UHGV virus genome: UHGV-0106586
Origin: a virus
Length of the DNA stretch: 61,990 nt
Reading direction: 5' to 3' (one strand)
Positions within the stretch are counted from its first letter, which is position 1; each line of letters starts with the position of its first letter. The notes below the pieces were generated by a model. That model saw only the letters and a program-made list of their open reading frames with translations. It did not search any database and had not been told where the DNA came from. Positions 8,719-35,330 of this stretch are shown here, in pieces. The translations under genes and the position numbers were made by a program.

Positions 8719-8895
8719 TTACTTATTAAACATTTTACCAGAACCACCACACATAGGGCAACAACCTGCTCTTGTATAGCCTTCTCCATTACAGTAGTCA
8801 CATTTTTTGTGTTCTGCAAAGTACTTACAAAGAAGATAAACAAGGACTGCTACACTACCAAGTGACAGCAAAATTTCTATCCAATATGCTTGCAT
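8719..8895 (-). CDS. small TM plus Cys-rich (CxxC...CxxC) protein, 58 aa, below the ORF-track length cutoff
   Basis: Translated by hand: MQAYWIEILLSLGSVAVLVYLLCKYFAEHKKCDYCNGEGYTRAGCCPMCGGSGKMFNK. Confidence 0.25.
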   Translation of the reverse strand: MQAYWIEILLSLGSVAVLVYLLCKYFAEHKKCDYCNGEGYTRAGCCPMCGGSGKMFNK

Positions 8896-9212
8896 GACTC
8901 ACCTCTCATATTCTTGTAAAGGATAAAGCTTCTGTCATGGACGATACTTGTAGATACTGCAAAGTTACTTTCAAGCATCTGTTTGTTTGGATTGTAGAAG
9001 CTTTCTTTAAACTCGTCAAGTGCAAATTGGTGATTGTCTGGAAGACCTTTTACACAGACCTTTATTGTGATTGCTGCTGCAATCTTACCAGTCAGTTCTT
9101 CTTTAGCTGCTACTAAAATTTTGTTAAGGAACTTACGACCATTTTCAGGTTTCTTGATGTTCTCCCAACGTTCTTCTAAGACGATGTTGATGTTCATCTC
9201 TTTGATTTTCAT
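8877..9212 (-). CDS. hypothetical protein (111 aa)
   Basis: ORF in track. Confidence 0.4.
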   Translation of the reverse strand: MKIKEMNINIVLEERWENIKKPENGRKFLNKILVAAKEELTGKIAAAITIKVCVKGLPDNHQFALDEFKESFYNPNKQMLESNFAVSTSIVHDRSFILYKNMRGESCKHIG

Positions 9213-9229
9213 AATCTTCTCCAGAAATT

Positions 9230-9252
9230 AAAAAGGCTCCCGTAGGAGCCTC
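9230..9252 (-). terminator. rho-independent terminator (ggctcc-cgta-ggagcc)
   Basis: Hairpin 9235-9250 with A-run upstream on plus strand. Confidence 0.5.
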
Positions 9253-9265
9253 TTATCATATACTT

Positions 9266-11047
9266 TTAAAGCTGCTTGTCAATATTATTTCGAATATCAC
9301 CAAGAGTTGTGTAGCCGAACTGCTCAGAGTCGCTAAAGACTAGACGTAAAGCACAAGCTGGATGTTCAAGTGCATCTGCAAAGCTCTGGAACCCATAGCC
9401 ATCTACAGCTTTCAGGTTTTCACCATCCCACATAGGTGCTACACCACCAAAAGCAGACTTCTTAACACCACTATCTGTTTTAGGGTCTTTTGCAAGCATA
9501 ATCTCTTTACCACCAATGCTTGCAAGAGTTGCTTTGACAGCAAATGCAAAGGTGTCACGAGTCATGTACTGGTAAGTGTAAGAACCTACACCAAACACTA
9601 CGTTAGAGCTTGCAAAACCCATTTCATACAAACGCTTCAGTATTTCGTTTGCACGTTCCAACGTGATAGAATCACCATAGATAAGGCCAATGTGCTCATC
9701 CAGTACCTTAAAACCTTTAGAGTTGATAGTCCCTCCAAAGATGTTATACAGGGTCTTAATAGCCCCATCAATCTCTGCTACAGGACGTGTTACAACGTTT
9801 GCAGAACCAACCATATAAGCATTTTTCAACATCACTGTATCAGCAACTTCAAAGTCTTCTCTGTCAACAACCATCTCGTAGCCTTCTGACAGTAGCCATC
9901 CAGCAATACCATAATTGATGTTTTCAAGCTTCATGTTCAGAACAGCATTCAACATTGTGTCGCTGGCTTCCAGCTTGCTTAAGTGTTCGTAATAAGCCTT
10001 TTTAGCACACTCTAAATGGATTGCTTTGTATCCTGTGACAATATGTACAGGGTCTCCAGAATCAGGACGAATTACCAGTTTGCCATCACGTCCCATAATC
10101 TCTTTACGGAGTTCTGGCAATATGACTGATACAGTTCTCCAGAAGTTATAAGTATCTGAAACAACACTTGCAATACCAGTTGGGTAAGTTTCTGTTAAGA
10201 AGCGACGGAAGGTTTGTAACTCACCTTTAAAACGTCTTTCATCTTCAATCAATTCATTACCACCTTCCCAAGCAATGTTTGCACACATTACAGAGTGTTC
10301 AGTGGCTGGTACAGAACTACCAATATCAGAGATTGGGTAGGACTGTCCATAGATGCGTTTAGCTGTATATACAGCAGGGAAGCTATCAGTCCCTTTAAAG
10401 CTGGTTAAGTGACCTACAGCATTAAATGCGTCATCAGTAAAGCCAGACATACCACGCATAGCAAAGTCATGGCACTGATAAGGTAAATGTAAGTCGTTGT
10501 CACAAGTAAGGTCAGCCCATTTCTTACAGATACGTTTGTAGTGCAATGCGATAGTTGCAATGGTACAAGCCTTCCAAATCTCAGCAGAGAAAGCATCTTC
10601 CAGATACCCCGCTACCCAATGGAAACCTGAAACAGTGTTCTGGAAGACAATCATTGGTACACGCATAGGGACAACTGTGCCTTCTTCTACAGCGTATACT
10701 TCAACTGGCAGATAACCTAAGTCGTGAAGTGCTTCCCAATGCTCTCGACCAATAGCATCTTTACCCAGAACACCGTTCATGACTTCTAAGATTTCATCAA
10801 TTGCTTCTTTTTTGTCACGTTCGAAGAAGGTGGCGTTCCAGTGGTCTATCAGGTAATCTTTAACAAAACGTTGAATACCAAAAGCCACTACACCGTCAAT
10901 TGCTAAGGGGCTGTTAAACCATTTGTCACTACGTGGTGTTAGGTTGAACATCAAGTACTCTGTTGCGCTAGGATACTGGTAGATGTGACCAGATTTGTAA
11001 GCATCTGCATTTAAACCTGCTGGTACTGCATAAAGTGATTTAGTCAT
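9266..11047 (-). CDS. nadV: nicotinamide phosphoribosyltransferase (NAMPT)-like enzyme, 593 aa, longer than typical ~470-500 aa NAMPT
   Basis: Full-length NAMPT-type fold judged from translation; adjacent to a PRPP-synthetase-like gene; exact substrate (PRPP vs ADPR-PP) not decidable by eye. Confidence 0.8.
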   Translation of the reverse strand: MTKSLYAVPAGLNADAYKSGHIYQYPSATEYLMFNLTPRSDKWFNSPLAIDGVVAFGIQRFVKDYLIDHWNATFFERDKKEAIDEILEVMNGVLGKDAIGREHWEALHDLGYLPVEVYAVEEGTVVPMRVPMIVFQNTVSGFHWVAGYLEDAFSAEIWKACTIATIALHYKRICKKWADLTCDNDLHLPYQCHDFAMRGMSGFTDDAFNAVGHLTSFKGTDSFPAVYTAKRIYGQSYPISDIGSSVPATEHSVMCANIAWEGGNELIEDERRFKGELQTFRRFLTETYPTGIASVVSDTYNFWRTVSVILPELRKEIMGRDGKLVIRPDSGDPVHIVTGYKAIHLECAKKAYYEHLSKLEASDTMLNAVLNMKLENINYGIAGWLLSEGYEMVVDREDFEVADTVMLKNAYMVGSANVVTRPVAEIDGAIKTLYNIFGGTINSKGFKVLDEHIGLIYGDSITLERANEILKRLYEMGFASSNVVFGVGSYTYQYMTRDTFAFAVKATLASIGGKEIMLAKDPKTDSGVKKSAFGGVAPMWDGENLKAVDGYGFQSFADALEHPACALRLVFSDSEQFGYTTLGDIRNNIDKQL

Positions 11048-11065
11048 CTTTTAATCTCTCTCGAA

Positions 11066-11085
11066 ATGGGGCTTGTAAGCCCCTA
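11066..11085 (-). terminator. hairpin between NAMPT-like and PRPP-synthetase-like genes
   Basis: ggggctt-gt-aagcccc inverted repeat. Confidence 0.3.
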
Positions 11086-11092
11086 TAAAGTT

Positions 11093-11974
11093 TTAATCAA
11101 GGTTTGCTACAGTAACTTGACCATAATGTGTTAAACCACGTTCTTTAGCTTCCCCTAAAGAGTTTGTAGTGTAGATGTGGTCAATGCCATTGTCAAGAAG
11201 GTTTTCAACACCTTTGGAAAAGATACCATGTGTTACATAGAGTTCTACACGTTTTGCACCTGCTTCACGAAGATGTTTAGCTGCTTCTATGAAGGTTCGA
11301 CCACCATCACAGATATCATCAAGAATCATAACAGTTTTATCTGTCAAATCAACATCATCAAGGATTCGCATACCAGTAATTTCACCAGTCTTAAGGTTAC
11401 GTACTTTAGACATTGTGATGTATGGCTTATCCACCTCTTTAGCAGTCTCTGCAATCTTCTTAGCAGCACCTGCATCTGGGGCTACTAAGTAATCAATCAG
11501 TGGGTCATTTGCATAGTGGACTGCAATTTCCTTTTGAGGAATACTCTGGAAGCAGTTAAACAGGTTATCTGGTACATAGCTGTGAGGGTCAACTGCACAG
11601 ACTGCATCAAAACCCATTGCATTAACCTGTTGTGCAAACACTTTCAAAGCTGCTGCATCACCTTTAAACATGTGACGGTCATAACGTGCATTTGGCAAAT
11701 AGTAAAAGATAATGGTCTTCATAGCAAACTTATGAGGTACTAAATCATCAATTGCCTCTTTAGCAAGTGCCACAGCAAACAATGTGTCTTTATCATAACC
11801 TTTTACAATCATAATCACATTGTTGATGGATGATGCTGCATAAGCAGTAAAATCAACAAACTCTGGCGAAAAGTGCCCACCAATCTCACCAGAAGGAAAT
11901 TGGATGATGTTAAACTCTTCTTCATGAGTTCCTTTAGTCGGTGAATGAACTGTAACACGGATAGATGTTTTCAT
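11093..11974 (-). CDS. ribose-phosphate pyrophosphokinase (PRPP synthetase)-like enzyme; start taken at ATG 11974
   Basis: YLPNARYDR (cf ARQDR), DPH (cf DLH), VAPDAGAAKK and VMILDDICDGGRT (PRPP/phosphoribosyl-binding loop) match the Prs family as recalled. Confidence 0.75.
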   Translation of the reverse strand: MKTSIRVTVHSPTKGTHEEEFNIIQFPSGEIGGHFSPEFVDFTAYAASSINNVIMIVKGYDKDTLFAVALAKEAIDDLVPHKFAMKTIIFYYLPNARYDRHMFKGDAAALKVFAQQVNAMGFDAVCAVDPHSYVPDNLFNCFQSIPQKEIAVHYANDPLIDYLVAPDAGAAKKIAETAKEVDKPYITMSKVRNLKTGEITGMRILDDVDLTDKTVMILDDICDGGRTFIEAAKHLREAGAKRVELYVTHGIFSKGVENLLDNGIDHIYTTNSLGEAKERGLTHYGQVTVANLD

Positions 11975-11984
11975 AGTTTCTCTC

Positions 11985-12290
11985 TTAGTCAAAAGTTACG
12001 TTTGTTACTGCCATTGCAGATTTGCATTTTGCAGGGTCTACAACGTGATAAAGTACACTACAGTTACCTGTGCTGTCTGGTACAGGCTTTACCCATTGAT
12101 GCTCTATAGTTGGCTCTCCTAAGTCTTTGTAAGAACCATCTGTAAAGTTGTTTACCATCTCAAGTGCAATTGGTTCTGGAACATGACCACGTATCATGTA
12201 CATCTCACAACCATTACCACCTTCACTGACTAAGGGTAAAATCTCCCACTTTTCTTTAGCCATTGTAAGTTGCCCTATAAACTGTCTCAA
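11985..12290 (-). CDS. hypothetical protein (101 aa)
   Basis: ORF in track. Confidence 0.4.
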   Translation of the reverse strand: MRQFIGQLTMAKEKWEILPLVSEGGNGCEMYMIRGHVPEPIALEMVNNFTDGSYKDLGEPTIEHQWVKPVPDSTGNCSVLYHVVDPAKCKSAMAVTNVTFD

Positions 12291-12771
12291 ACTTCAACAG
12301 GAGAGATATTGCCAAATCTGTATAGTTGTTATCAAGCACATCTGGCATATTATTTTTGATATATTTCTCTTGCTCTTCATAGGTCATCTTAGGGGTGCTT
12401 AAAAGATTATCCCTTTGCTTCTGGTTATCAAGTTTAGTCTGGATAAACCAGTTTGTGCAGTGGTGCTCACCACCCTTTGTAACAGGTTTGTGGTGACCTA
12501 ATGTGAAGGATTGACTACCTGTGTATCTGCAAAGTTTATTGAGAACTGTAATGGTGTTCTTCACAACAAAACATTCATACAAGTTATCTATAGTGTAGTG
12601 TGGGTAATAGCGGAATAGTGCTCTTTCACGAGTACTCTCACGATTCCAGAGAATCATGTGGTTTGAGTTAGAAGGGTCGTATTGGTGGGAGTCAATGAAC
12701 TCTTGACGTTCCTCAAAGCTGAGCCTTAACACTGACATTGCAGCCGAACGTTTCAGGTTTGACAGGTACAT
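12256..12771 (-). CDS. hypothetical protein (171 aa)
   Basis: ORF in track. Confidence 0.4.
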   Translation of the reverse strand: MYLSNLKRSAAMSVLRLSFEERQEFIDSHQYDPSNSNHMILWNRESTRERALFRYYPHYTIDNLYECFVVKNTITVLNKLCRYTGSQSFTLGHHKPVTKGGEHHCTNWFIQTKLDNQKQRDNLLSTPKMTYEEQEKYIKNNMPDVLDNNYTDLAISLLLKFETVYRATYNG

Positions 12772-12787
12772 ATTATCTCCAAAATAA

Positions 12788-12812
12788 AAAAGGGAACCTT
12801 TACAGTTCCCTA
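12788..12812 (-). terminator. hairpin terminator (gggaac...gttccc)
   Basis: Inverted repeat flanked by A/T runs. Confidence 0.4.
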
Positions 12813-12823
12813 ATCATATAGTC

Positions 12824-13135
12824 TTACTGTGAGATTTTCAACACTTTGAGGAAGCCTTCTTCACCAATGTTGCTTATAATGTAATTTGTAGGTTTAATAG
12901 AATGGTTTAGACATACAATCTTCTTGTCTTTCTTGTTGTAAGTTAGTTTAAGCTGTTCTAGCTCTTTACTACCATCAAGAGATTCATTGTACATCTTCAC
13001 AGCTTTCTTAAATGGGATGTGTTCACCACCAAAGGTTAGAAATCCCGTACCACAATAATGTGCGTTATGTTGCTCAACCATAAACTGACACAGAACTGCA
13101 ATCTGAATCTTACGAGTGTTATAAATCTTTTTCAT
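12824..13135 (-). CDS. hypothetical protein (103 aa)
   Basis: ORF in track. Confidence 0.4.
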   Translation of the reverse strand: MKKIYNTRKIQIAVLCQFMVEQHNAHYCGTGFLTFGGEHIPFKKAVKMYNESLDGSKELEQLKLTYNKKDKKIVCLNHSIKPTNYIISNIGEEGFLKVLKISQ

Positions 13136-13146
13136 GTTAACTACCC

Positions 13147-13404
13147 TTATTTGTTACGTTTACGGTTACGAGCTTTCTTAGCTGCACGTTTAATTGCTGC
13201 TGCACCAGTTGGTCGATGTGCTTGTTTTTTACCACCTTTTCCACGTCCGACGTGGATGTAAGGCTGCTTTTCAATTTGGCTTGCAAGAACTTGTGCAACT
13301 GCTGAAGCATCTACACCAACCTGCTTTCCAGTCATAGAAATGATTGCTGCTGCTTTTGCCAGTGCCTTCAAGAAGCCAGCCTTCATATTACCTAAAATTC
13401 CCAT
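13147..13404 (-). CDS. hypothetical protein with highly basic C-terminal tail
   Basis: ORF in track; C-terminus ...IKRAAKKARNRKRNK. Confidence 0.4.
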   Translation of the reverse strand: MGILGNMKAGFLKALAKAAAIISMTGKQVGVDASAVAQVLASQIEKQPYIHVGRGKGGKKQAHRPTGAAAIKRAAKKARNRKRNK

Positions 13405-13419
13405 TTTTATTCTCTCTTA

Positions 13420-13776
13420 TTAAAGTTTAATACAGAACTTATGAAGTTCTTCTTCAGTGATTCCTATTGGAGTTACACCTTCTCTGATGTTTTGAATCCT
13501 GTAGAAGTCTCCAAATTTGTCTGATTCATGGATGACAAATGTAACGTTCTTCACCATCGTTGCAAGGGCACATAATGAACGTTCGCCAAACTTTTCTCTT
13601 GTGTAAATCATCCAAGCATCTAACTTGTTAATGTCGTAAGTCCACTTACCAGAATAATCATTCTGCTCGCCATTGACAATCACCTTGCCATCCATACTCT
13701 TTTCTCCAGATGTTTTGGTTATCAGAACCACGATATGGTTTAACTGTTGGTTTAGAAGAATCATACTTACCATCAA
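13420..13776 (-). CDS. hypothetical protein; start uncertain (track start overlaps nrdG by 119 nt; internal starts at ~13695 or ~13611 possible)
   Basis: ORF in track; overlap with nrdG noted. Confidence 0.3.
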   Translation of the reverse strand: MMVSMILLNQQLNHIVVLITKTSGEKSMDGKVIVNGEQNDYSGKWTYDINKLDAWMIYTREKFGERSLCALATMVKNVTFVIHESDKFGDFYRIQNIREGVTPIGITEEELHKFCIKL

Positions 13777-14143
13777 TCACCACGTCAACATATTTCATCA
13801 CATCTAAGTGGATTTTTTCGTGCAGTTGAAAACCTGTCCAAAGCCATATAGACTTTTCTGGATAAACAGTTTTAATACGCTTGCATATGTTGGTGACCTC
13901 TCGAATGTTTCTGTCATCCAGAGGCTCCCCACCAAGTATTGACAGCCCACTGATAGCCTTATCATTCATTAACTTAATGATGCCGTAGAGGTTTGCATAA
14001 GTAAACTCTTTACCAGCATTAAACTTCCAAGACTCCCTGTTAAAGCAACCTTCACAGTGATGTTTACAGCCAGCTACGAAGAGGCTTACACGAACCCCTT
14101 CACCATTAGCTGTGTCAAATGGTCTAATCTCCATGTAATTCAT
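13658..14143 (-). CDS. nrdG: anaerobic ribonucleotide reductase activating protein (radical SAM)
   Basis: FVAGCKHHCEGCFN is the CxxxCxxC radical-SAM cluster motif; size ~160 aa typical of NrdG. Confidence 0.8.
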   Translation of the reverse strand: MNYMEIRPFDTANGEGVRVSLFVAGCKHHCEGCFNRESWKFNAGKEFTYANLYGIIKLMNDKAISGLSILGGEPLDDRNIREVTNICKRIKTVYPEKSIWLWTGFQLHEKIHLDVMKYVDVVIDGKYDSSKPTVKPYRGSDNQNIWRKEYGWQGDCQWRAE

Positions 14144-14178
14144 CTAGTTACCTCACCAATATTATTTAAGCCTTTTAC

Positions 14179-14574
14179 TCATTCAAATACCACCTGACAA
14201 GGAACTTGTTTAGTAATAAATTCTTCACAGTGTTCTTTAATGAAGTTTTGTAATGGCACACAGTCTTGTGCACACGTCATTAGCATAATGTACTCTGGAT
14301 TCATAATATTTTCAATGGTGTAGAAGACAACATTGTCAAATAATTCATGACCGTCTTCTTCAGACCAAGTTCCAGTGACTATAGCTAATTTGTCAAGCAA
14401 TTCATTAGGCAACGCTACACCATCTTCTGCGGAATCACTTAGAACGTTGTCACCTATGTACAATGTGAAGACCGTATGAAATGTTGAGTATCTTACGTGA
14501 TTCTTTTCGCAAGAGCCACACTCTGAGGCGTAATCTTTAATCCACTCTAACTGTTTTTTGTTTAACTTAATCAT
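14179..14574 (-). CDS. hypothetical protein (131 aa)
   Basis: ORF in track. Confidence 0.4.
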   Translation of the reverse strand: MIKLNKKQLEWIKDYASECGSCEKNHVRYSTFHTVFTLYIGDNVLSDSAEDGVALPNELLDKLAIVTGTWSEEDGHELFDNVVFYTIENIMNPEYIMLMTCAQDCVPLQNFIKEHCEEFITKQVPCQVVFE

Positions 14575-14771
14575 AATTTCACCTTAGCTGGCAATGCACT
14601 GAATGCTATAGCTAACCCTAAAAATGGTTTGAAGCATGACCATAAATCCATCTGACCATGATATGTGAAACTCCATTGTGGGTCTGAAAAACCCCATACC
14701 ATAACGCTAACTCCAAAGAAGAAGATTAGAATGTGAAGTATGTATATCAACGTTTTTGATATTTTAAACAT
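14571..14771 (-). CDS. small hydrophobic protein (66 aa)
   Basis: ORF in track; hydrophobic ILHILIFFFGVSVMVWGF segment. Confidence 0.3.
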   Translation of the reverse strand: MFKISKTLIYILHILIFFFGVSVMVWGFSDPQWSFTYHGQMDLWSCFKPFLGLAIAFSALPAKVKL

Positions 14772-25685: not shown

Positions 25686-26543
25686 TTAGTCTTCTGTATC
25701 GAAGTCTTCATCTTCTTCGTCATCTGGGTCTGGCAAGTCTTCATCGTCACCATCATCAGAAGCATTCGAAGGTTTGTGGTCTGTTGCATCTTCTTCAGTG
25801 ATTTCACCGTTATCTTCAACACCATCAAGACCAAGCATAGCCAGTTCATCTTCATCCAGTTCAGGTTCGCCGTTAGCACCGTTACCACCAGTGTAAGGTA
25901 CAAGAGTATCAATGATAAACTGTTCCTGAATAGGTTTTGTCAGAACATTGTTCTCAAAAGTGTAGAAGTGAGTAGAAAGAATCACACTACCAAAAGAACC
26001 GTTACCAACTGCAATATCTGGATGAATTACATCATAGTTCTTGTCATCTTCATGTTTGTCAGATGCTTGAGCTTTGATTTTCTTCATCGGCTGTTTAACA
26101 GCTACACGCTTACCATTTACTTCTTCAATCAGCATTACAGGGAATGACTGTTTAGCTGTCCACACAGCACCATCTTTATAAGCTGCTGCACGACTTACTT
26201 TCAAGATGTAGTAAGTGTCTGCTTCAAATGGTGGTTTGCAACCAAACTTCTCTTCGAAGTCATCTGCATCAACTGCTTCAGTAGTAACTTTATCCCAACC
26301 TTCTGGATTTTTCTTAGACTTAGTAAACTCTTTAAACAGCTTGTTACCATCTTCTGCCAGAATTGAAACACTGTAGTTACAGTCTTTGCCTGGGAATTTC
26401 TTATCAATGGATTTACCTTTTCCCGGACGTGGTGAAGTGTTCAGGTAATAAAACCAGACATCTTTCAGAAGGTAACGCAGAGTTTGACGTTCAGTACCAT
26501 TATACTTCTCTACCGGAGCTTTCATTTTAACAACTTTAGACAT
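25686..26543 (-). CDS. single-stranded DNA-binding protein with acidic C-terminal tail (T7 gp2.5-like)
   Basis: Highly acidic C-terminus ...DDEDLPDPDDEEDEDFDTED; position within the replication module. Confidence 0.55.
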   Translation of the reverse strand: MSKVVKMKAPVEKYNGTERQTLRYLLKDVWFYYLNTSPRPGKGKSIDKKFPGKDCNYSVSILAEDGNKLFKEFTKSKKNPEGWDKVTTEAVDADDFEEKFGCKPPFEADTYYILKVSRAAAYKDGAVWTAKQSFPVMLIEEVNGKRVAVKQPMKKIKAQASDKHEDDKNYDVIHPDIAVGNGSFGSVILSTHFYTFENNVLTKPIQEQFIIDTLVPYTGGNGANGEPELDEDELAMLGLDGVEDNGEITEEDATDHKPSNASDDGDDEDLPDPDDEEDEDFDTED

Positions 26544-26616
26544 TATTTAAACCTCTATCTCAATTTATGAAGAGTACCAATTCTAATTTGTTGATACTCT
26601 ATTGTCAAACATTAAT

Positions 26617-26766
26617 TACTGGAAGTTGTGCTTATCTTTAGAAGCTGCTTTACGTGCAGTTTTTCCAGTTCTTACACGCTTCTCTTCATAGTATTTTGCT
26701 GGTTTTCCAGCAGTGGCTTTTAAGGAATCCCCAAAAACTTGTTCAAATGCTTTAGAGTGTTTCATG
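26617..26766 (-). CDS. small basic protein (49 aa), below the ORF-track cutoff
   Basis: Hand-translated MKHSKAFEQVFGDSLKATAGKPAKYYEEKRVRTGKTARKAASKDKHNFQ. Confidence 0.25.
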
Positions 26767-27055
26767 ATATTCTCCGATATACTTGATATTCAAACACATC
26801 TTCTTTAATTATAAACAGCCAACCAATATTATGTCGAGGTATAGTAATAGTGACTGTTATCATACTGTGATGGAACTTTTCTTCTACCTCAACGCCTCCA
26901 TCACATTTCATGTAGAGCATTCTATAGAACCTATCAACCTTTGTCAAACACTCTTCCTGAAATTCATTTAAACTTTTTTCTTCAAAGAAGGGTATGAACC
27001 CATCTCTTTTATAACTATCACTCAGTTTCAAACGGGCAGTCATCTGCATCCTCAC
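26762..27055 (-). CDS. hypothetical protein (97 aa)
   Basis: ORF in track. Confidence 0.4.
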   Translation of the reverse strand: MRMQMTARLKLSDSYKRDGFIPFFEEKSLNEFQEECLTKVDRFYRMLYMKCDGGVEVEEKFHHSMITVTITIPRHNIGWLFIIKEDVFEYQVYRRIS

Positions 27056-29196: not shown

Positions 29197-29204
29197 TCTC
29201 TCTT

Positions 29205-29948
29205 TTAAACTTTAATGATGGCTCTTAGCTTGTTCTCAAGGTCTGCAAGAGTACCATTATTATGAATAATGTCACGCTCATATTTTGTAGAAATCCCATT
29301 TTCTGAAACATGTGATGAAACTTTGTCCACATTGTCTCTTTTTACTTCAATAGTTTGGTGTGCAAATCTACTCAGCCATTCAGCTTCAGAGTCAAATCTT
29401 AAATCACTGATTAAGACAAAACCATATTGATTTCTAAGTGAGCACATTTCATGGAATCTAACCATTCTTTTTTCAAGGTCTTTAGACCAGAACTTGTCGC
29501 CCATTACCTTACGGACAACTTCAGTACCCCAAATTTGTTGAATTTGTCTTGATGAGAATTTATACTTTTTACTAAATCCCAGACGTGTTAGTATGGTAGG
29601 TTTAGCAACCTTCTTAAGCTCCATGATTAATCGTCCGGTTAACTCTGACATAAGCTTGAAGTCCATATGATAACGTTCATCTCTGAAGGTGAACTCCATA
29701 GCTTCCGTAACTTTAAACATCAGTTCATGATATGATAAGTCAAATACCTGTGGAGTCTCTTTAGTTTCACCATACAGGTCATTCCAAGTCAGGTCAAATA
29801 TCTTTGATGCAGACATTTTAAGGTTGTCTGCAAAGGCCATTACAGCAACATTGTAGCCGTACTCATCCTCTAAGATGTTCTTCACAATAGAACATGAGGT
29901 GTCTTTTCCAGAGCGTGCCTTTCCAGTAAATGCGATAATATTACTCAT
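29205..29948 (-). CDS. deoxynucleoside monophosphate kinase (T4 gp1-like)
   Basis: P-loop IIAFTGKARSGKDT closely resembles the T4 dNMP kinase N-terminus as recalled. Confidence 0.65.
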   Translation of the reverse strand: MSNIIAFTGKARSGKDTSCSIVKNILEDEYGYNVAVMAFADNLKMSASKIFDLTWNDLYGETKETPQVFDLSYHELMFKVTEAMEFTFRDERYHMDFKLMSELTGRLIMELKKVAKPTILTRLGFSKKYKFSSRQIQQIWGTEVVRKVMGDKFWSKDLEKRMVRFHEMCSLRNQYGFVLISDLRFDSEAEWLSRFAHQTIEVKRDNVDKVSSHVSENGISTKYERDIIHNNGTLADLENKLRAIIKV

Positions 29949-29999
29949 TTTATCTCCCTTAATTACTAAAAAGCCCCCAACTAAGGAGGCTTGTAAGAT

Positions 30000-30821
30000 T
30001 TATAAAGACTTAGTGCAGTTGGTCACTGGTAATCTGTGAGTGCTCTTTTCAGCCATAGCTGAGACTTGCTTCACAAAATCATCACCGAAGTTAATACGCA
30101 GCTTCTCTTCAATGATTGAAGCCCCAATGTTTACCAAAACATCATTGATTGCTTGCATACTGACACCACCAGTCATCTCCTCAACGAACTCAATGGTTAC
30201 CCCCAACATCTGAGAAAGTTGGATTAGTGCAAAGATATTCATCATTGTAGAGATAGCTGGAATCATCAGAGCAACCTTCACCTGTAGTGGCTCTACATCA
30301 GCTACAGAGTCATCTTTCACAGCTTCTGCTAAAGAGTCTTTAGTTTGCTGGATAATCTCTTTGATTCGTGGGTTTAATTCTTCTACGCCCCAATCAAGTT
30401 TTTCATATCGTGAAAGTTTCTCTTCCATACGCTTCTCAAGAACAGCCATAACAGCACTCGTTGATGAGATAAGCGTATCAATAATGAAATCAGTGTCCTT
30501 AGTCAGCAACAGTTCCTTATCTTCGTCTGACATTCTGATATAGTCATTCTTTTGTATTTCATAAAAAATGAACTCTGCAAGAGCATCAACACCTACAACA
30601 ATAGATGCTAAGGCAAGCTTTTTGTCACACAGCATCATGTTAACCTGTTCTGCAAAAGCACCGTTATCAGACTTGTCTTCAGGCAAGTTATAGCTTGCAG
30701 GCATAAACTGTTCTGTGTAGTTGTTACCACGAAGAATCATAGCCATGCTTTCTACGGCATTGATTAAGAATGCTTCATCAACACCTTTCTCTTCAAGCAT
30801 CTTTTCTACATCGATATTCAT
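30000..30821 (-). CDS. hypothetical protein (273 aa)
   Basis: ORF in track. Confidence 0.45.
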   Translation of the reverse strand: MNIDVEKMLEEKGVDEAFLINAVESMAMILRGNNYTEQFMPASYNLPEDKSDNGAFAEQVNMMLCDKKLALASIVVGVDALAEFIFYEIQKNDYIRMSDEDKELLLTKDTDFIIDTLISSTSAVMAVLEKRMEEKLSRYEKLDWGVEELNPRIKEIIQQTKDSLAEAVKDDSVADVEPLQVKVALMIPAISTMMNIFALIQLSQMLGVTIEFVEEMTGGVSMQAINDVLVNIGASIIEEKLRINFGDDFVKQVSAMAEKSTHRLPVTNCTKSL

Positions 30822-30822
30822 A

Positions 30823-31245
30823 TTATTTCTCTCTCAGTTGGTTAAGTTTCTTTCTAGAACATTTTAAGTTTTCAGATGAAGAAAAGTCAAGTGTCTTTTC
30901 AGAACGTGGATAGTAATGCCTATCCCAAGAAGTTTCAACATCGTTAATCAGTGACGCTAGATTACACAGGTCTGTACCACTTTGCAACCTCTTTTTAAGA
31001 GAATCAAGTAAAGCAACTGTGTCTTTAGCTTTACGTCTCGCTGTAGCAACATCTTTCATATGCTCAAATACAGAGCATTTTAAGTCATCTTCATAGTTTT
31101 CAGACAACTCTATTTCATGTTGTATATCAACCATTCTCCTGTGATGGTGAGCATATTCCCGTTGAGCAGCAATGTCAAGTTCTTCCAACTTCTGCAAAGC
31201 TCTAACAAAGTCAGCTATGTCTGGGTGAACAAACATTTTCTGCAT
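30823..31245 (-). CDS. hypothetical protein (140 aa)
   Basis: ORF in track. Confidence 0.45.
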   Translation of the reverse strand: MQKMFVHPDIADFVRALQKLEELDIAAQREYAHHHRRMVDIQHEIELSENYEDDLKCSVFEHMKDVATARRKAKDTVALLDSLKKRLQSGTDLCNLASLINDVETSWDRHYYPRSEKTLDFSSSENLKCSRKKLNQLREK

Positions 31246-31502
31246 GTAAGCCTCTTTTAAGTAACTATTAAGTTTTAATCTTTTATCTTAACGTATTCTA
31301 TACGTTATACTTTAAAGCTTTTTAAAAGCTATTAAATAATCTTTTAAGAGTTTTAAAGTATCTGTATAGTTAAACTGTTAAGTAACCTTTTAAGTAAAAA
31401 CCCACTTCGCAAAGATTAACACCTTGTCAAGTGCATTGTCAACTTGCTTTTTATAATTTTTTGCAGTAATGTATGAGGTTAATGATTTTAGAGGGAGTAA
31501 AA
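31246..31502. promoter_or_regulatory. AT-rich divergent control region between minus-strand and plus-strand gene blocks; palindromes (ctttaaag, gctttttaaaagc); candidate promoters and/or replication origin
   Basis: Strand switch at this point; TTGTCA and TATAAT hexamers present but spacing imperfect; palindromes seen directly. Confidence 0.4.
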
Positions 31503-34202
31503 ATGGAAAACGTAGATTTTAAAAACTTACATTTAGTTGGTGATACAGAAACTGATGGTTTACTCCTTGAGTTTACTAAAGTGCACGTAATGGCTTTCGC
31601 AGACTATAAATCTGACGATGAAGAGCCACCTGTATGGGTCTTTACAGATGAACCTATCCTCGGTCACAAGTATACCAAGTACATTAAGGGTGGTTTACGT
31701 GAAGGTGTTGAATTTGCGTTAAAGGCAAAACGTCTTTGCATCCATAACGGTCTCGGTTATGACTGGTGGGTTTTCAATCACATTGCACCCGATTTGTGGA
31801 ACTTTGATAATCCAAAGTGTAAGCCGTGGAGTAATTTCTTTCAGGATTCTCTTATCCAGTCTCGTGTTCAGTGGATGGATAGACCAACTCCAAAGGGCTA
31901 TAAAGGTGCTCATGGCTTGGCAGCATGGGGTGCTCGTGTGGGTGTCCGTAAACCAGAGATTGAACATTGGGGTGTGTGGAATGCAGAAATCTTCACTCGT
32001 GTTGTGGAAGATATCCGTATTAACGCCAAAACTAAACGTGCATTGGATAATGAATATCTGAAGCTTAAGAAGTGTGGTATAGACACTTATGAAACCTACA
32101 TGCGAGCTAAAGAGACATCTTTCTGGATGAGTCAACAGGCTATCAATGGTTGGAAAGCTGATAAAGAGCTTATGGAGTTCCATGTAAAGGAACTTGACAA
32201 GTTGACTAATGAGCTTGCTTCAGAAGTTGAACCACATCTTCCTCCAACTATTAAAACCAAAGGTAAAGTCACTGGAGAAGAATTTGCAAAAGCTTGGAAT
32301 GAGTATGTTGAAGCGTTTGGTCATGCAGATGGTCTGAAGAGAATTACCAAGTACCCTAAGACAAAGTATCGTCAACAGGTACGCAACGGTGAGATGCAGA
32401 CATATGAAATCAAGCCATTTGGTAAGCCAACTACAAAGATTTTTAACATTGAAAAGCGGAATTGCTATACACCAACCAACTCTGTAACTGGCGAAGAGTA
32501 CAAGGAAGGCTTTGTAGCAATGAAGGATGCTCGTGCAATTTGCAATGAGTTGAATGCAAAGATTGGTAAGAAGTGCAAAGACTGGAAGCCAGTAAAAACA
32601 GTTAAAACTGTGAAGTACTATAACAGCCATGTTGTTAACCACTTTAAGCTTGAGTCAAGTCGCTACACAGGTTTGATTGATGCACCATATACACCAATTG
32701 AGTTCGAAGTTTCTCGTATGACTCAGGTAGCAGTTGTTAAAGACTACTTGAAATCAGTTGGTTGGATTCCAGATGACTGGAACTATAAGAAAGACTCTGA
32801 TGGTCGTCCTGTTAAGGTTTGTCGCTTCAAAGACAACAAAAAGATGATTACAAAACATCCTAAGTGGGATGAGATGGTGGAACGGTGTGGTTTGAGTTAT
32901 GTTGAACATGAAGGTGTCCAGTACATTGAACATAACTGGTCTGTGAAGAAGTACACAGATTTGCTTGAGCCTTGCTTAATCCGTACTTCACCAAAACTTA
33001 CTGAATCATCTTATGATACGATTGAAGGTGAGCTTGGACAGAAGATTGCTAAGTACTATACTTTGATGCACCGACGCAGAACTATTGAGAACTCAAAGGA
33101 TGATGAAAAAGGTTGGTTGAACCAGATTCGTCCAGATGGTCGCCTTAGTGCTGGTGCAATGGTATTTGGTACTTCAACTGGACGTATGACACAATATGGT
33201 ATTGTAAACGTACCGTCTGGTGCTGCTGTCTATGGAGCACCTATGCGGGAAGTTTGGACTTGTGAAGAAGGTACAGATATCATCTCTGTAGACCAAAACT
33301 CAGCACAGCTAGTTCTTCTTTGTAACTTTATGGGTGATGAAGAGTTCACTAAAGCGGTAACTGAAGGTAAAGAGTCAGTAGAATTTACCAAGCAAGAGGA
33401 TGGGAGATACTATTGCAAGCATCTTGATAAGTACCTCAATCCAGAAACTGATAAGTATCTTCGTTATGATGCTGAGAATGACCTCTACGAAGTCTACACA
33501 GGTACTGATGCACATACACTGAATAGTATTTACTTTGGTCTGAACAAGGAAGAAGATATTGTTCGTTGTAGGGAAACACAGGATGAGGAACTTCTCCACG
33601 AGATTACAAAAGGTCGTAAGAAGGCCAAGAATGGCATCTACGCCCTGTTATTTGGAGCCGGAGACGAGAAGTTTGCAAAAACTATCAAGGCATCATCTAC
33701 GGAAGAAGGTGCATTGACTAAACAAACTTACTTTGTGCGTCTACCTAAGATTAAAAAGCTGCTTGACAGGTTAGAGGAAGACTTCAAAGCAACTAAGAAG
33801 GCACTTGAAGAGGTTTTTGGAAAAACTTCTGCAATTGCCAAAGGTGGTTATATCAAAGTCGCTGGAGCGTGGTTATGGTGTAAATCTCCACATAAGTTAT
33901 TGAATTTCACACTCATGGGTAGTGAGGCGCAGGTACAGAATGAGGGGATTAACTTGGCTAATAGAGAGTTAACAGAGCGAAAACTTACAGTTCTAAATGG
34001 TAGGAAACCAGCTATTGGTGCTAGATGGGTCTGTAGTTACCACGACGAAGTTTCTTTAGAGGTTCCAACAAAAGCTGTACCAGATGTTAAGGAGATTATT
34101 GATAGAATGTATGGTCAAGCATCAAAAAATCTTGGATTAAAGAGTAAGACGCTTGTTACAGGCACTGGTAAGGTAGGTAAGACATGGTACGCCGTACACT
34201 AA
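31503..34202 (+). CDS. DNA polymerase, family A (T7 gp5-like) with 3'-5' exonuclease domain
   Basis: N-terminal LVGDTETDG exo I motif; C-terminus ...YAVH as in Pol I family; ATG 31503 preferred (GAGGGAG RBS) over track start 31473. Confidence 0.85.
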   Translation: MENVDFKNLHLVGDTETDGLLLEFTKVHVMAFADYKSDDEEPPVWVFTDEPILGHKYTKYIKGGLREGVEFALKAKRLCIHNGLGYDWWVFNHIAPDLWNFDNPKCKPWSNFFQDSLIQSRVQWMDRPTPKGYKGAHGLAAWGARVGVRKPEIEHWGVWNAEIFTRVVEDIRINAKTKRALDNEYLKLKKCGIDTYETYMRAKETSFWMSQQAINGWKADKELMEFHVKELDKLTNELASEVEPHLPPTIKTKGKVTGEEFAKAWNEYVEAFGHADGLKRITKYPKTKYRQQVRNGEMQTYEIKPFGKPTTKIFNIEKRNCYTPTNSVTGEEYKEGFVAMKDARAICNELNAKIGKKCKDWKPVKTVKTVKYYNSHVVNHFKLESSRYTGLIDAPYTPIEFEVSRMTQVAVVKDYLKSVGWIPDDWNYKKDSDGRPVKVCRFKDNKKMITKHPKWDEMVERCGLSYVEHEGVQYIEHNWSVKKYTDLLEPCLIRTSPKLTESSYDTIEGELGQKIAKYYTLMHRRRTIENSKDDEKGWLNQIRPDGRLSAGAMVFGTSTGRMTQYGIVNVPSGAAVYGAPMREVWTCEEGTDIISVDQNSAQLVLLCNFMGDEEFTKAVTEGKESVEFTKQEDGRYYCKHLDKYLNPETDKYLRYDAENDLYEVYTGTDAHTLNSIYFGLNKEEDIVRCRETQDEELLHEITKGRKKAKNGIYALLFGAGDEKFAKTIKASSTEEGALTKQTYFVRLPKIKKLLDRLEEDFKATKKALEEVFGKTSAIAKGGYIKVAGAWLWCKSPHKLLNFTLMGSEAQVQNEGINLANRELTERKLTVLNGRKPAIGARWVCSYHDEVSLEVPTKAVPDVKEIIDRMYGQASKNLGLKSKTLVTGTGKVGKTWYAVH

Positions 34203-34687
34203 CACTTCAAGACTACAAGGATAATTTTATTTATGACCCCGACAAAGGGGTCTTCTACAACAAGTATGACAGGAATAGGCAAGCTAAAGCTGGGCAGATT
34301 GCAGGAGGAAGTGATGCTTATGGTTACAAAGTACTTAAATTCAAAGATGTCGTAATAAAAGTTCATCACCTCGTTTGGTGGTTCGAGCATGGTTACAAGC
34401 CCACTAAGATGATAGACCACATTGATGGTAACAGAAGTAATAATCATATCTCTAATCTTAGGGAGACTGATAAGTATGGAAACGCCCAAAACAGAGTTAA
34501 GCAGACAGCTAACAAGTCAGGTTACAAGGGTGTGCATTATTTTAAAGACTGCAATAAATGGAGGGCTGCTATAACATGCAGAGGTAAAAGGACATCACTT
34601 GGCTTATTTGACACACCAGAAGAAGCCCATAAAGCTTACTGTGAAGCTGCTATTAAACTCCACGGAGAGTTTGCAAAACTAAGTTGA
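34184..34687 (+). CDS. HNH endonuclease with AP2 domain (free-standing, overlapping the 3' end of the polymerase gene)
   Basis: KVHHLVWWFEHGYKP...IDHIDGNRSNNHISNLRE plus AP2-like SGYKGVHYFKDCNKWRAAI...GLFDTPEEAHKAY. Confidence 0.75.
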   Translation: MVRRTLTLQDYKDNFIYDPDKGVFYNKYDRNRQAKAGQIAGGSDAYGYKVLKFKDVVIKVHHLVWWFEHGYKPTKMIDHIDGNRSNNHISNLRETDKYGNAQNRVKQTANKSGYKGVHYFKDCNKWRAAITCRGKRTSLGLFDTPEEAHKAYCEAAIKLHGEFAKLS

Positions 34688-34738
34688 CAAGGTGCTCAGG
34701 GAAGAGTACCTTATACAATATCTTATATAGGAGGGCTT

Positions 34739-34948
34739 ATGAGCCACCGTGGAAGAACCCATGCAGCGATGATGAAAGGTGCTTCAAAGGAGACTATCAA
34801 AAATCGTAAGCAGAAGTTGTTTGAGAGAATGAACAGGTTAATTGACAATTCATCTCTTTCAGGTTCTGAGAAGGTTTTCTTGAAAGGTAATCTGAAAAGC
34901 GTTGCACAAGAACTTATTGACATTGAGTATTGGAGACATCAAAAATGA
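34739..34948 (+). CDS. hypothetical protein (69 aa)
   Basis: ATG with AGGAGGG RBS. Confidence 0.4.
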   Translation: MSHRGRTHAAMMKGASKETIKNRKQKLFERMNRLIDNSSLSGSEKVFLKGNLKSVAQELIDIEYWRHQK

Positions 34949-35157
34949 CACTTGCAGACGTTATTCAGCAACTTCACGACAATTGCTATACTCCAGAGTT
35001 GATTCAGGAGATGTCTATTGTGGTAATGCCTTGTAAGTTCGTAAAAGCTTTTAATGGCGAATCTTTAAGGTCTGCACATATCCTTATTGTTGACGGTAAG
35101 ATTGCAAGGGACCGTACAGGAGTCCTTAAGGGTGAACGTATTAGCATTGACATCTGA
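34945..35157 (+). CDS. hypothetical protein (70 aa from ATG 34945)
   Basis: ATG with GGAGA RBS; track start is a TTG. Confidence 0.4.
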   Translation: MTLADVIQQLHDNCYTPELIQEMSIVVMPCKFVKAFNGESLRSAHILIVDGKIARDRTGVLKGERISIDI

Positions 35158-35174
35158 GTATTGGAGATACCAAA

Positions 35175-35330
35175 ATGAAACGCAAAGTAAAATTCTTTAG
35201 TTTGTATGGAAGAGTCGGTAAAGGTTTTGATTGGCAACTTCTACGTTCAGATGTTAAAAGCAACGAGTTAGCACAGCTTATTATAAACTATCGACGAACG
35301 TACAGAGAAGTAGAACATCGTGAACAGTAA
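35175..35330 (+). CDS. small hypothetical protein (51 aa), below track cutoff
   Basis: Hand-translated MKRKVKFFSLYGRVGKGFDWQLLRSDVKSNELAQLIINYRRTYREVEHREQ; GGAGA RBS. Confidence 0.3.
   Translation: MKRKVKFFSLYGRVGKGFDWQLLRSDVKSNELAQLIINYRRTYREVEHREQ

What the first reader, a model, noticed from the sequence alone, without database searches (positions are those of the whole stretch)
8719..35330. Plausible small genes below the ORF-track length cutoff
Hand translation found three unlisted ORFs with reasonable starts: 8719-8895 (minus; TM helix plus CxxC...CxxC), 26617-26766 (minus; basic 49 aa) and 35175-35330 (plus; 51 aa with GGAGA RBS). Small proteins are often missed and are frequently regulators or anti-defence factors in phages.
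Basis: seen in the sequence. Interest (0 to 1): 0.3.

Follow-up and report, generated by a model that had tools for sequence, protein, structure and literature searches.

The report
Three known small Felix O1-type phage genes
The three short reading frames are real, conserved protein-coding genes of a Felix O1-like phage, but they were already annotated in 2010 as Felix O1 genes 131, 103 and 92, and their functions remain unknown.

Summary
The window is a Felixounavirus (Felix O1-like myovirus) genome. All three ORFs exist as described. ORF2 is really at 26616-26765, one base off.

**They are genes.**
- Each has an ATG start with a conserved Shine-Dalgarno sequence 6-7 nt upstream.
- Each is intact in nearly all relatives.
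- Variable sites pile up at codon position 3: 8/5/31, 2/0/8 and 4/1/21 for positions 1/2/3.
- dN/dS is mostly 0.03-0.17.
- The called frame is the only one of six without stops, and it has the lowest pN/pS.

**They are not new.**
- They are orthologs of Felix O1 genes 131, 103 and 92 (Whichard 2010).
- They belong to PHROGs 3931, 4424 and 2381, all of unknown function.
- Most GenBank relatives annotate them. A few records omit ORF2 or ORF3.

**What each looks like.**
- ORF1 is a single-pass membrane protein with one DnaJ-type (CxxCxGxG)x2 zinc knuckle. It sits upstream of rIIA here, but next to nrdC thioredoxin in T4-like Krischvirus.
- ORF2 is a basic peptide (pI 10) in the T7-like replication module. 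Its start overlaps the stop of the upstream gene.
- ORF3 is a small basic domain also found in phi92-like phages (there fused to another domain) and in Klebsiella myoviruses.

No evidence supports or excludes an anti-defence or regulatory role. Interest is low.

The parts
8719..8895 (-). ORF1, 58 aa, ortholog of Felix O1 gene 131. It has a short N-terminus, one transmembrane helix (about residues 6-23) and a C-terminal C32xxC35xGxG ... C45-C46xxC49xGxGK zinc knuckle.
   Evidence: sequence; phrog_3931, E=1.8e-33; purifying selection; invariant residues; DnaJ Cys-rich domain 1EXK, E=0.0019; Felix O1 gene 131, 85876-86052, 'membrane protein, 1 TMD'
8898..8907 (-). Shine-Dalgarno region of ORF1 (GAGAGGTGAG). 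It lies inside the 3' end of the upstream 111-aa gene, whose end overlaps ORF1 by 19 nt.
   Evidence: ATATGAGAGGTGAGTC upstream of the ATG in 25 of 46 loci, plus one-base variants
8877..9212 (-). Upstream 111-aa gene (Felix O1 gene 130; phrog_4262, unknown function). It overlaps the start of ORF1.
6324..8690 (-). rIIA, 28 nt downstream of the ORF1 stop. Same strand and probably the same transcript.
   Evidence: phrog_612 RIIA, E=1.3e-188
9231..9254 (-). Terminator-like hairpin after nadV. It marks the likely 5' boundary of the unit formed by gene 130, ORF1 and rIIA.
   Evidence: consensus scan only
26616..26765 (-). ORF2, 49 aa, pI 10.1, ortholog of Felix O1 gene 103. The N-terminal 38 residues are conserved (K2 S4 K5 A6 F7 V10 F11 G12 ... 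K29 R30 R32 G34 K35 T36 A37 R38). Its ATG overlaps the stop of the upstream gene (ATGA).
   Evidence: (phrog_4424, E=2.7e-35)
26772..26775 (-). Shine-Dalgarno GGAG of ORF2, 6 nt before the ATG.
   Evidence: TATATCGGAGAATATC in 30 of 41 loci
26762..27055 (-). Upstream small gene (Felix O1 gene 102; phrog_4982, unknown function), translationally coupled to ORF2. Relatives annotate 93 aa.
26580..26608 (-). Sigma-70 consensus-like promoter TTGACA-17-TAGAAT in the 72-nt gap between the ORF2 stop and the 285-aa acidic-tail gene (25686-26543).
   Evidence: consensus scan only
35175..35330 (+). ORF3, 51 aa, pI 10.2, ortholog of Felix O1 gene 92. Conserved core: [YW]GR[VM]G..D[WY]..L[KR][ST].V ... Y.[KR]T[YFW]RE[VL].[YFH]RE.
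   Evidence: (phrog_2381, E=8.7e-19)
35163..35167 (+). Shine-Dalgarno GGAGA of ORF3, 7 nt before the ATG.
35344..35580 (+). Downstream 78-aa predicted lipoprotein gene (MWKAVIVLSVILLSGC, lipobox LSGC), starting 14 nt after the ORF3 stop.
   Evidence: phrog_902, unknown function

Best explanation
The three ORFs are genuine small protein-coding genes of a Felixounavirus. They are under purifying selection, are co-transcribed with their neighbours, and are the orthologs of Felix O1 genes 131, 103 and 92. That part is shown. The functions below are inferred.

**ORF1.** This is a bitopic inner-membrane protein with the N-terminus outside and the C-terminus inside. Its cytoplasmic tail is a single DnaJ-type zinc centre made of two CxxCxGxG motifs. 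I think it most likely acts as a membrane-tethered zinc-knuckle protein-protein interaction (holdase or adaptor) module. It would engage a membrane-associated partner during the middle phase of infection. The conserved Glu and Ser in the membrane segment suggest a specific contact within the membrane. Probability about 0.35.

**ORF2.** This is a highly basic peptide, translationally coupled to gene 102, inside the T7-like replication module (primase/helicase, gene 102, ORF2, then a 285-aa protein with an acidic tail). It is most likely a nucleic-acid- or replisome-binding accessory factor. Probability about 0.3.

**ORF3.** This is a small basic alpha/beta-type domain that moves between myovirus lineages. 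It occurs alone or as the N-terminal domain of a 160-aa protein. It is most likely an accessory host-interaction module. Probability about 0.3, with no mechanism resolved.
For: **Coding.**
- ORFs, start codons and Shine-Dalgarno sequences.
- Excess of variable sites at codon position 3: 8/5/31, 2/0/8, 4/1/21.
- dN/dS mostly 0.03-0.17.
- The called frame is the only stop-free frame and has the lowest pN/pS of six.
- tblastn conservation in 258-263 phage records, down to 47%, 65% and 36% amino-acid identity for ORF1, ORF2 and ORF3.

**Identity.**
- Annotated CDSs in relatives.
- PHROGs 3931, 4424 and 2381.
- Felix O1 genes 131, 103 and 92 in PMC3185647 Supplementary Table 1.
- The flanking genes 130, 1, 104 and 93 gave RT-PCR transcripts, with maximum expression listed at 25 min.

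**ORF1.**
- Hydrophobic segment at residues 6-22, with no positive charge on the N-terminal side.
- Invariant residues E7, S11, C32, C35, G37, G39, G44, C45, C46, C49, G51, G53 and K54 across Ounavirinae, Krischvirus and P0039.
- Alignment to both zinc centres of the E. coli DnaJ Cys-rich domain 1EXK at E=0.0019, and to anti-TRAP at E=0.31.
- Sub-threshold hits to Pfam DnaJ_CXXCXGXG and NCBIfam DnaJ.

**ORF2.**
- ATGA overlap with gene 102.
- The same gene order in Mooglevirus and in Pectobacterium phage Wc4-1.
- pI 10.1.

**ORF3.**
- Standalone in Ounavirinae and in Klebsiella phage KP12-like phages.
- Fused to a phrog_7812 domain in three phi92-like genomes.
- No neighbouring genes are shared between lineages.
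Against: - No direct evidence of translation exists. The 2010 RT-PCR survey did not test genes 131, 103 or 92 ('NT').
- AlphaFold2 models of ORF1 and ORF3 were low-confidence (pLDDT 60-61), so no fold evidence is available.
- The DnaJ-domain matches are all below the curated thresholds (17.1 versus 32.7 bits).
- In Mooglevirus the region after the ORF1 membrane segment is net acidic (sequences). The positive-inside argument for topology is therefore weak, and the topology rests mostly on the need for reduced cysteines.
- A few database entries carry frameshifted ORF1 (P0003, P0005-P0007). This suggests either sequencing errors or that the gene is dispensable.
- For ORF2, codon periodicity alone cannot exclude the antisense 29-aa ORF at 26602-26691. 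The stop-codon and pN/pS controls do exclude it.
Confidence: 0.9

Rival explanations
1. The ORFs are chance open frames in AT-rich intergenic or overlapping sequence and are not translated.
For: They are short (49-58 aa). No expression data exist for them ('NT'). Some GenBank records do not annotate ORF2 or ORF3.
Against: - Variable sites concentrate at codon position 3 (p=5e-7, 3e-3 and 9e-7).
- dN/dS is 0.03-0.17 where it can be estimated.
- The called frame is the only stop-free frame and has the lowest pN/pS.
- ATG and Shine-Dalgarno sequences are conserved.
- Protein-level conservation persists across lineages whose synonymous sites are saturated.
Confidence: 0.03
2. ORF1 (gene 131) is the phage holin, as Whichard et al. 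2010 suggested as one of five candidates.
For: It is small, has one transmembrane domain and has a charged C-terminus. It is listed as a holin candidate in PMC3185647.
Against: - It has a conserved DnaJ-type zinc knuckle, which is not a holin feature.
- It is wedged between gene 130 and rIIA. Both of those are listed as maximally expressed at 25 min, not at 60 min with the late genes.
- Homologs occur in T4-like Krischvirus, next to nrdC in an early-gene region. From my own knowledge, T4-type phages already have the T holin.
- Pfam and PHROG scans gave no match to a holin family.
Confidence: 0.06
3. ORF1 is a dedicated membrane anchor or partner of rIIA.
For: It sits immediately upstream of rIIA with a 28-nt gap in Felixounavirus, Mooglevirus and Suspvirus. 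Only a terminator-like hairpin lies upstream of the unit formed by gene 130, ORF1 and rIIA.
Against: - These genera share collinear genomes, so the gene order is not independent evidence.
- In Krischvirus, and on the P0039 contig, the homolog sits next to a thioredoxin/glutaredoxin gene and not next to rIIA.
- T4 rIIA.1, which occupies the same position, is unrelated and has no transmembrane segment and no cysteine.
Confidence: 0.12
4. One or more of the three genes is an anti-defence or host-takeover factor.
For: - They are small genes in early/middle regions.
- ORF3 lies in a variable block of tiny genes downstream of the DNA polymerase. It has divergent alleles within one genus (98%, 67% and 57% amino-acid identity). 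It also occurs in three myovirus lineages with no shared neighbours. That pattern is typical of accessory genes.
Against: - No similarity to any characterised protein.
- No anti-defence library was available to search.
- ORF2 is nearly invariant (96-100% within the genus) and embedded in the replication module. That looks like a core function rather than an arms-race gene.
Confidence: 0.15

Closest known systems
Felix O1 genes 131, 103 and 92 (Whichard et al. 2010, PMC3185647) and PHROGs phrog_3931, phrog_4424 and phrog_2381
   Same: Orthologs at 97%, 98% and 67% amino-acid identity, in the same genomic positions and with the same or near-same lengths (58, 49, and 48 versus 51 aa). Full-length HMM matches to the PHROGs.
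   Different: Nothing of substance. The window's ORF3 belongs to a different allelic type from Felix O1 gene 92: 51 aa with a longer N-terminus.
DnaJ cysteine-rich zinc-finger domain (Pfam PF00684; PDB 1EXK) and anti-TRAP (PDB 3LCZ)
   Same: Two CxxCxGxG motifs spaced as in one DnaJ zinc centre. The sequence aligns to both centres of 1EXK.
   Different: - Only one centre, where DnaJ has two.
- No J domain and no G/F region.
- An N-terminal membrane anchor.
- An extra invariant Cys, forming a CC doublet.
- Scores are below the curated thresholds.
Plant thylakoid transmembrane DnaJ-like zinc-finger proteins such as FIP, the FtsH5-interacting protein (PMC5915565)
   Same: The architecture: a hydrophobic membrane anchor followed by a C-terminal C4 DnaJ-like zinc finger. 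In FIP this acts as a protein-interaction module towards a membrane protease.
   Different: Eukaryotic and larger. No sequence homology has been shown, so this is an architectural analogy only.
Krischvirus (RB49/JSE-like) small 'putative membrane protein' next to nrdC, for example Makalu002_046
   Same: The same architecture and the same invariant residues (E, S, CxxCxGxG, GCCxxCxGxGK). It is linked through P0039: 46% identity between P0039 and the Krischvirus protein, and 42% between P0039 and Felixounavirus ORF1. Whichard 2010 had already noted the JSE homolog EpJSE_00047 at 39% identity.
   Different: The genomic context differs. It overlaps the 3' end of NrdC thioredoxin rather than preceding rIIA, and it has a shorter N-terminus.
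phi92 gp205
   Same: Its N-terminal 47 residues belong to the ORF3 family (phrog_2381, E=1.3e-17; 38% identity).
   Different: It is 160 aa, with an added C-terminal phrog_7812 domain that has no counterpart in the window.

Membership tests
PHROG phrog_3931 (ORF1), phrog_4424 (ORF2), phrog_2381 (ORF3) | Full-length significant match to the family HMM | tested here: met
   E=1.8e-33, 2.7e-35 and 8.7e-19, covering residues 1-58, 1-49 and 1-51
Felix O1 genes 131 / 103 / 92 | Orthology: high identity plus the same flanking genes | tested here: met
   97%, 98% and 67% identity at the syntenic positions in AF320576.1. The coordinates match Supplementary Table 1 of PMC3185647.
DnaJ cysteine-rich domain (Pfam PF00684) | Repeated CxxCxGxG motifs | tested here: met
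   C32xxC35xG37xG39 and C46xxC49xG51xG53 are invariant across 7 diverged homologs. There are only two repeats, so one zinc centre, against four repeats in DnaJ.
DnaJ cysteine-rich domain (Pfam PF00684) | Score at or above the Pfam gathering threshold | tested here: not met
   17.1 bits against a cutoff of 32.7, E=0.0065. NCBIfam DnaJ scores 17.3 bits against 377.
DnaJ cysteine-rich domain (Pfam PF00684) | Zinc coordination by the four cysteines | not testable with these tools
   This needs metal analysis of purified protein. The AF2 model was unusable (pLDDT 60).
DnaJ/Hsp40 co-chaperones | A J domain with the HPD motif | tested here: not met
   The 58-aa protein consists only of a transmembrane helix and a zinc knuckle. 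There is no J-domain match.
Holins | Small membrane protein with at least one transmembrane domain and a charged C-terminus | tested here: met
   One hydrophobic segment and a C-terminus ending in GKMFNK
Holins | Match to a holin family, or a lysis-cassette or late-gene context | tested here: not met
   No holin family among the Pfam or PHROG hits. The gene lies between gene 130 and rIIA, both maximally expressed at 25 min. Homologs sit in early regions of T4-like Krischvirus.
Anti-TRAP (Pfam PF15777 / NCBIfam RtpA) | Significant match to the family model | tested here: not met
   E=1.5 (Pfam), E=0.36 (NCBIfam) and E=0.31 for PDB 3LCZ
T4 rIIA.1 (the positional counterpart upstream of rIIA) | Sequence similarity | tested here: not met
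   T4 rIIA.1 is a 67-aa soluble acidic/basic protein with no transmembrane segment and no cysteine.
Known anti-defence proteins | Homology to a characterised anti-defence family | not tested
   No anti-defence library was on hand. PADLOC (defence systems), Pfam, NCBIfam and PDB gave nothing for ORF2 or ORF3.

The most novel reading that the evidence does not exclude
ORF1 may define a phage-specific family of membrane-tethered, single-centre DnaJ-type zinc fingers, shared by Ounavirinae and T4-like Krischvirus. Its members carry a conserved intramembrane Glu and Ser. Such a protein could target a host inner-membrane machine, for example FtsH or membrane-associated DnaK/DnaJ clients, by analogy with plant FIP. 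Alternatively it could act as a thiol-redox-linked factor, given its translational coupling to NrdC thioredoxin in Krischvirus. Either would be a new class of small phage host-takeover or counter-defence protein.
Probability: 0.1. Interest if true: 0.5.

Novelty: already known. Interest (0 to 1): 0.15.

Why it matters
The practical value is for annotation. A 60-aa ORF cutoff hides real, conserved genes in this phage, and a few public records still omit ORF2 or ORF3. Biologically, none of the three has a known function. ORF1 is the most tractable lead. It has a recognisable zinc-knuckle motif and a clear predicted topology. It has homologs in two unrelated myovirus groups. It also has an ortholog in Bas63, a Felixounavirus of the BASEL phage collection in which deletion and interaction experiments could be tried. 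If it targets a host membrane complex, it would add a new type of small phage effector. Otherwise the finding is ordinary.

Tried and rejected
- **AlphaFold2 models.** ORF1 (alignment A3) and ORF3 (A2) gave pLDDT 60 and 61. That is too poor to use, so no fold search was run.
- **Word-indexed homolog searches.** For all three ORFs these returned only close relatives, plus frameshifted variants of ORF1.
- **Exhaustive phmmer search with ORF1.** It returned Ounavirinae representatives, multi-repeat CxxCxGxG proteins that match on the motif only, and one informative small homolog, P0039.
- **IMG/VR scans.** No lineages appeared beyond those already seen in GenBank phages.
- **T4 rIIA.1 as a positional homolog of ORF1.** Rejected.
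- **rIIA partnership for ORF1.** Weakened by the Krischvirus and P0039 contexts.
- **Rosetta-stone test for ORF3.** The C-terminal domain of phi92 gp205 has no counterpart in the window.
- **The 285-aa acidic-tail protein as a T7 gp2.5-like single-strand DNA-binding protein.** There is no sequence match to any PDB chain, so this remains an inference from the acidic tail and the gene's position.
- **Comparative scan for further genes under 60 aa between 8 and 36.5 kb.** ORF1 and ORF2 passed. Most other passing candidates were antisense-frame artefacts of longer genes, so I make no claim about additional small genes.
- **Literature searches.** Searches for Felixounavirus transcriptomics or proteomics and for Bas63 anti-defence work found nothing on these genes.

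Full report
**Identity of the window**

BLAST of the three regions against GenBank phages gives 95-99% nucleotide identity to more than 200 Felixounavirus genomes. These are Felix O1-like myoviruses of E. coli, Salmonella and Shigella. Weaker matches go to Mooglevirus, Suspvirus and other Ounavirinae.

**Check of the observation**

All three ORFs are present.
- ORF1 is at 8719-8895 (-), 58 aa.
- ORF2 is at 26616-26765 (-), 49 aa.
- ORF3 is at 35175-35330 (+), 51 aa.

Each starts with ATG and has a Shine-Dalgarno sequence 6-7 nt upstream: GAGAGGTGAG, GGAG and GGAGA respectively.

The descriptive details also hold. ORF1 has one hydrophobic segment (residues 6-22, mean Kyte-Doolittle 2.3) followed by two CxxC motifs. 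ORF2 has pI 10.1 and ORF3 has pI 10.2.

**Are they genes?**

I extracted orthologs from 19 GenBank loci and later from more than 80 IMG/VR loci.

- *Codon position.* Among close alleles of equal length, variable sites at codon positions 1/2/3 are 8/5/31 for ORF1, 2/0/8 for ORF2 and 4/1/21 for ORF3. The binomial p values for the excess at position 3 are 5e-7, 3e-3 and 9e-7.
- *dN/dS.* Nei-Gojobori dN/dS against the window is 0.03-0.14 for ORF1 within the genus. It is about 0.125 for ORF2 against Mooglevirus and 0.03-0.17 for ORF3. A few ORF2 pairs within the genus rest on only 2-3 substitutions and range up to 0.5.
- *Six-frame control.* In every comparison with diverged relatives, the called frame is the only one of six with no stop codon in either sequence, and it has the lowest pN/pS.
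- *Start signals.* Start codons and Shine-Dalgarno sequences are conserved.
- *Breadth.* tblastn finds ORF1 in 258 phage records down to 47% identity. It finds ORF2 in 263 records, with the N-terminal 34-38 residues conserved as far as Pectobacterium phage Wc4-1. It finds ORF3 in 262 records, including phi92-like phages and Klebsiella myoviruses of about 145 kb at 36-43%.
- *Exceptions.* The only disrupted copies are in 'UNVERIFIED' records (NS7, GE_vB_7A) and in four singleton protein clusters with frameshifts in ORF1.

The ORFs are therefore real protein-coding genes under purifying selection.

**Are they new?**

No.
- Relatives annotate them as 'hypothetical protein' or 'putative membrane protein'.
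- They belong to PHROGs phrog_3931, phrog_4424 and phrog_2381, all of unknown function.
- Supplementary Table 1 of the Felix O1 genome paper lists all three:
  - gene 131: 85876-86052, 58 aa, 'CHP, membrane protein (1 TMD)', with a 39%-identical homolog in phage JSE;
  - gene 103: 68198-68347, 49 aa, pI 10.2;
  - gene 92: 59668-59814, 48 aa, pI 9.7.
- None of the three was tested in that paper's RT-PCR survey. The flanking genes 130, 1, 104 and 93 were transcribed, with maximum expression listed at 25 min.

The original AF320576.1 record lacks the ORF2 and ORF3 orthologs. Two Mooglevirus records lack ORF3. Bas63 annotates its ORF3 ortholog from an implausible CTG start 21 nt upstream.

**ORF1**

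*Conserved residues.* Across Felixounavirus, Mooglevirus and Suspvirus the invariant residues are M1, Q2, Y4, W5, E7, L10, S11, G13, C32, C35, G37, G44, C45, C46, P47, C49, G51, G53 and K54. This gives two CxxCxGxG motifs, which is the signature of the DnaJ cysteine-rich zinc finger.

*Similarity to DnaJ.* phmmer aligns the tail to both zinc centres of E. coli DnaJ (1EXK, E=0.0019) and weakly to anti-TRAP (E=0.31). The Pfam and NCBIfam DnaJ matches are below threshold. ORF1 therefore resembles a single DnaJ-type zinc centre but is not a member of the DnaJ family. It has no J domain.

*Wider family.* An exhaustive phmmer search of 1.8 billion representative proteins found only the Ounavirinae members, proteins matching on the motif alone, and one 53-aa protein with the same architecture, P0039.
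- P0039 matches phrog_3931 at E=9e-9.
- It bridges to T4-like Krischvirus phages: 46% identity to the Krischvirus protein and 42% to Felixounavirus ORF1.
- In Krischvirus the 52-aa gene overlaps the 3' end of nrdC thioredoxin and is not near rIIA.
- In the extended alignment E7, S11, both CxxCxGxG motifs, the CC doublet and K54 stay invariant.

*Context in the window.* ORF1 overlaps the end of gene 130 by 19 nt and ends 28 nt before rIIA. A terminator-like hairpin lies upstream of gene 130.

*What this rules in and out.*
- T4 rIIA.1, the positional counterpart, is unrelated.
- The rIIA adjacency is lineage-specific and is weak evidence for a functional link.
- The holin suggestion of Whichard et al. 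is unlikely. The reasons are the zinc knuckle, the middle-phase neighbours and the homologs in T4-type phages.

*Proposed topology and role.* The N-terminal side of the helix has no positive charge, and the cysteines need a reducing compartment. The C-terminus is therefore probably cytoplasmic. This is an inference, and the charge argument is weak in Mooglevirus. The closest architectural analogues are plant thylakoid proteins with a transmembrane anchor and a DnaJ-like zinc finger, such as FIP, which binds the FtsH5 protease. My best guess is a membrane-tethered zinc-knuckle interaction module. The partner is unknown.

**ORF2**

- Its ATG overlaps the stop of gene 102 (ATGA).
- The gene order is primase/helicase, gene 102, ORF2, then a gap of about 70 nt with a consensus TTGACA-17-TAGAAT promoter, then a 285-aa protein with an acidic tail. 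This order is kept in Mooglevirus and in Pectobacterium phage Wc4-1.
- The protein is 96-100% identical within the genus.
- Its conserved core is K-S-K-A-F..V-F-G.S..A-T.G...K-R.R.G-K-T-A-R.
- Nothing significant turned up in Pfam, NCBIfam, PADLOC or PDB.

I infer a nucleic-acid- or replisome-binding accessory peptide. That the 285-aa neighbour is a gp2.5-like single-strand DNA-binding protein is itself unproven.

**ORF3**

- It lies in a run of tiny genes downstream of the DNA polymerase and an HNH endonuclease. It sits immediately before a predicted lipoprotein gene.
- This 750-nt region is more variable than the other two regions.
- ORF3 has distinct alleles within Felixounavirus, at 98%, 67% and 57% amino-acid identity.
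- The family also occurs alone in Klebsiella phages.
- In three phi92-like genomes it forms the N-terminal domain of a 160-aa protein, fused to phrog_7812.
- No neighbouring genes are shared between lineages.
- The fusion partner has no counterpart in the window.

This pattern fits an accessory module. No mechanism can be assigned.

**Verdict**

They are the already annotated Felix O1 genes 131, 103 and 92, and their function is unknown. The anti-defence or regulator idea remains untested. Interest is low. ORF1 is the one mildly interesting lead.

Noticed in passing
window 8703-8843 (-), the alternative frame of ORF1; proteins P0003, P0005, P0006, P0007: Four singleton database proteins of 63 aa are ORF1 frameshifted at four different positions into the same open alternative frame, all ending ...LISNLTVN. 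One shift lies in the A6 run at about 8805-8810. They are either sequencing errors or occasional natural loss of the gene. By comparison, intact ORF1 has 262 cluster members.
   Followed up: partly
window 34900-35650; GenBank GU169904.1 positions 94291-95039: 'Staphylococcus phage SA1' (147 kb) carries Felixounavirus sequence at 98.5% identity, and two 'Campylobacter' phage records also match. These look like chimeric or contaminated records. Separately, vB_EcoM_P54 (88 kb) is filed under Tequatrovirus although it is Felix O1-like.
   Followed up: no
window 35175-35330 and flanks: ORF3 has sharply different alleles within one genus (98%, 67% and 57% amino-acid identity). This 750-nt block is much more variable among Felixounavirus genomes than the ORF1 and ORF2 regions, which suggests mosaic replacement of accessory genes.
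   Followed up: partly
window 35344-35580 (+): A 78-aa predicted lipoprotein (MWKAVIVLSVILLSGC, lipobox LSGC; phrog_902, unknown function) lies directly downstream of ORF3. It could be a superinfection-exclusion-type protein.
   Followed up: no
window 35794-35979 (+): A 61-aa ORF with CKCGCNC...CNSC (a zinc-ribbon-like CxC/CxxC pair; phrog_5768, unknown function). It is another small Cys-rich gene just above the 60-aa cutoff.
   Followed up: no
window 9266-11047 (-) and the gene upstream of it: nadV (nicotinamide phosphoribosyltransferase) lies just upstream of the unit formed by gene 130, ORF1 and rIIA. In relatives a ribose-phosphate pyrophosphokinase gene sits next to nadV. The search for 'Bas63' plus 'anti-defense' returned a preprint on phage NAD+ reconstitution against NAD-depleting defences that mentions Bas63 (bioRxiv 10.1101/2024.02.11.579819). 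I did not read it.
   Followed up: no
window 26580-26608, 26919-26947, 9255-9282, 6289-6318 (all - strand): Several near-perfect sigma-70 consensus promoters (TTGACA, 16-18 nt spacer, TAGAAT or TATGAT). One lies inside gene 102 and one lies right after ORF2. This fits Felix O1's reliance on the host RNA polymerase.
   Followed up: no
L003 553-729 (Bas63 bas63_0043), which corresponds to window 35154-35330: Bas63 annotates its ORF3 ortholog from a CTG codon 21 nt upstream of the ATG that has the GGAGA Shine-Dalgarno sequence. The extension is not conserved in other alleles, so this start is probably mis-called.
   Followed up: yes
L018 904-1386 (phi92 gp205); L069, L070: In phi92-like phages the ORF3-family domain is fused in frame to a domain of about 110 aa (phrog_7812). 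The fusion is conserved in three genomes and has no homolog in the window.
   Followed up: partly
L106 2239-2656 (Krischvirus Ec_Makalu_002); L050: In T4-like Krischvirus, the ORF1-family gene overlaps the 3' end of nrdC thioredoxin by 11 nt. On the metagenomic contig L050 it overlaps the end of a gene with a thioredoxin-type domain. This may point to a thiol-redox link for the Cys-rich tail.
   Followed up: partly
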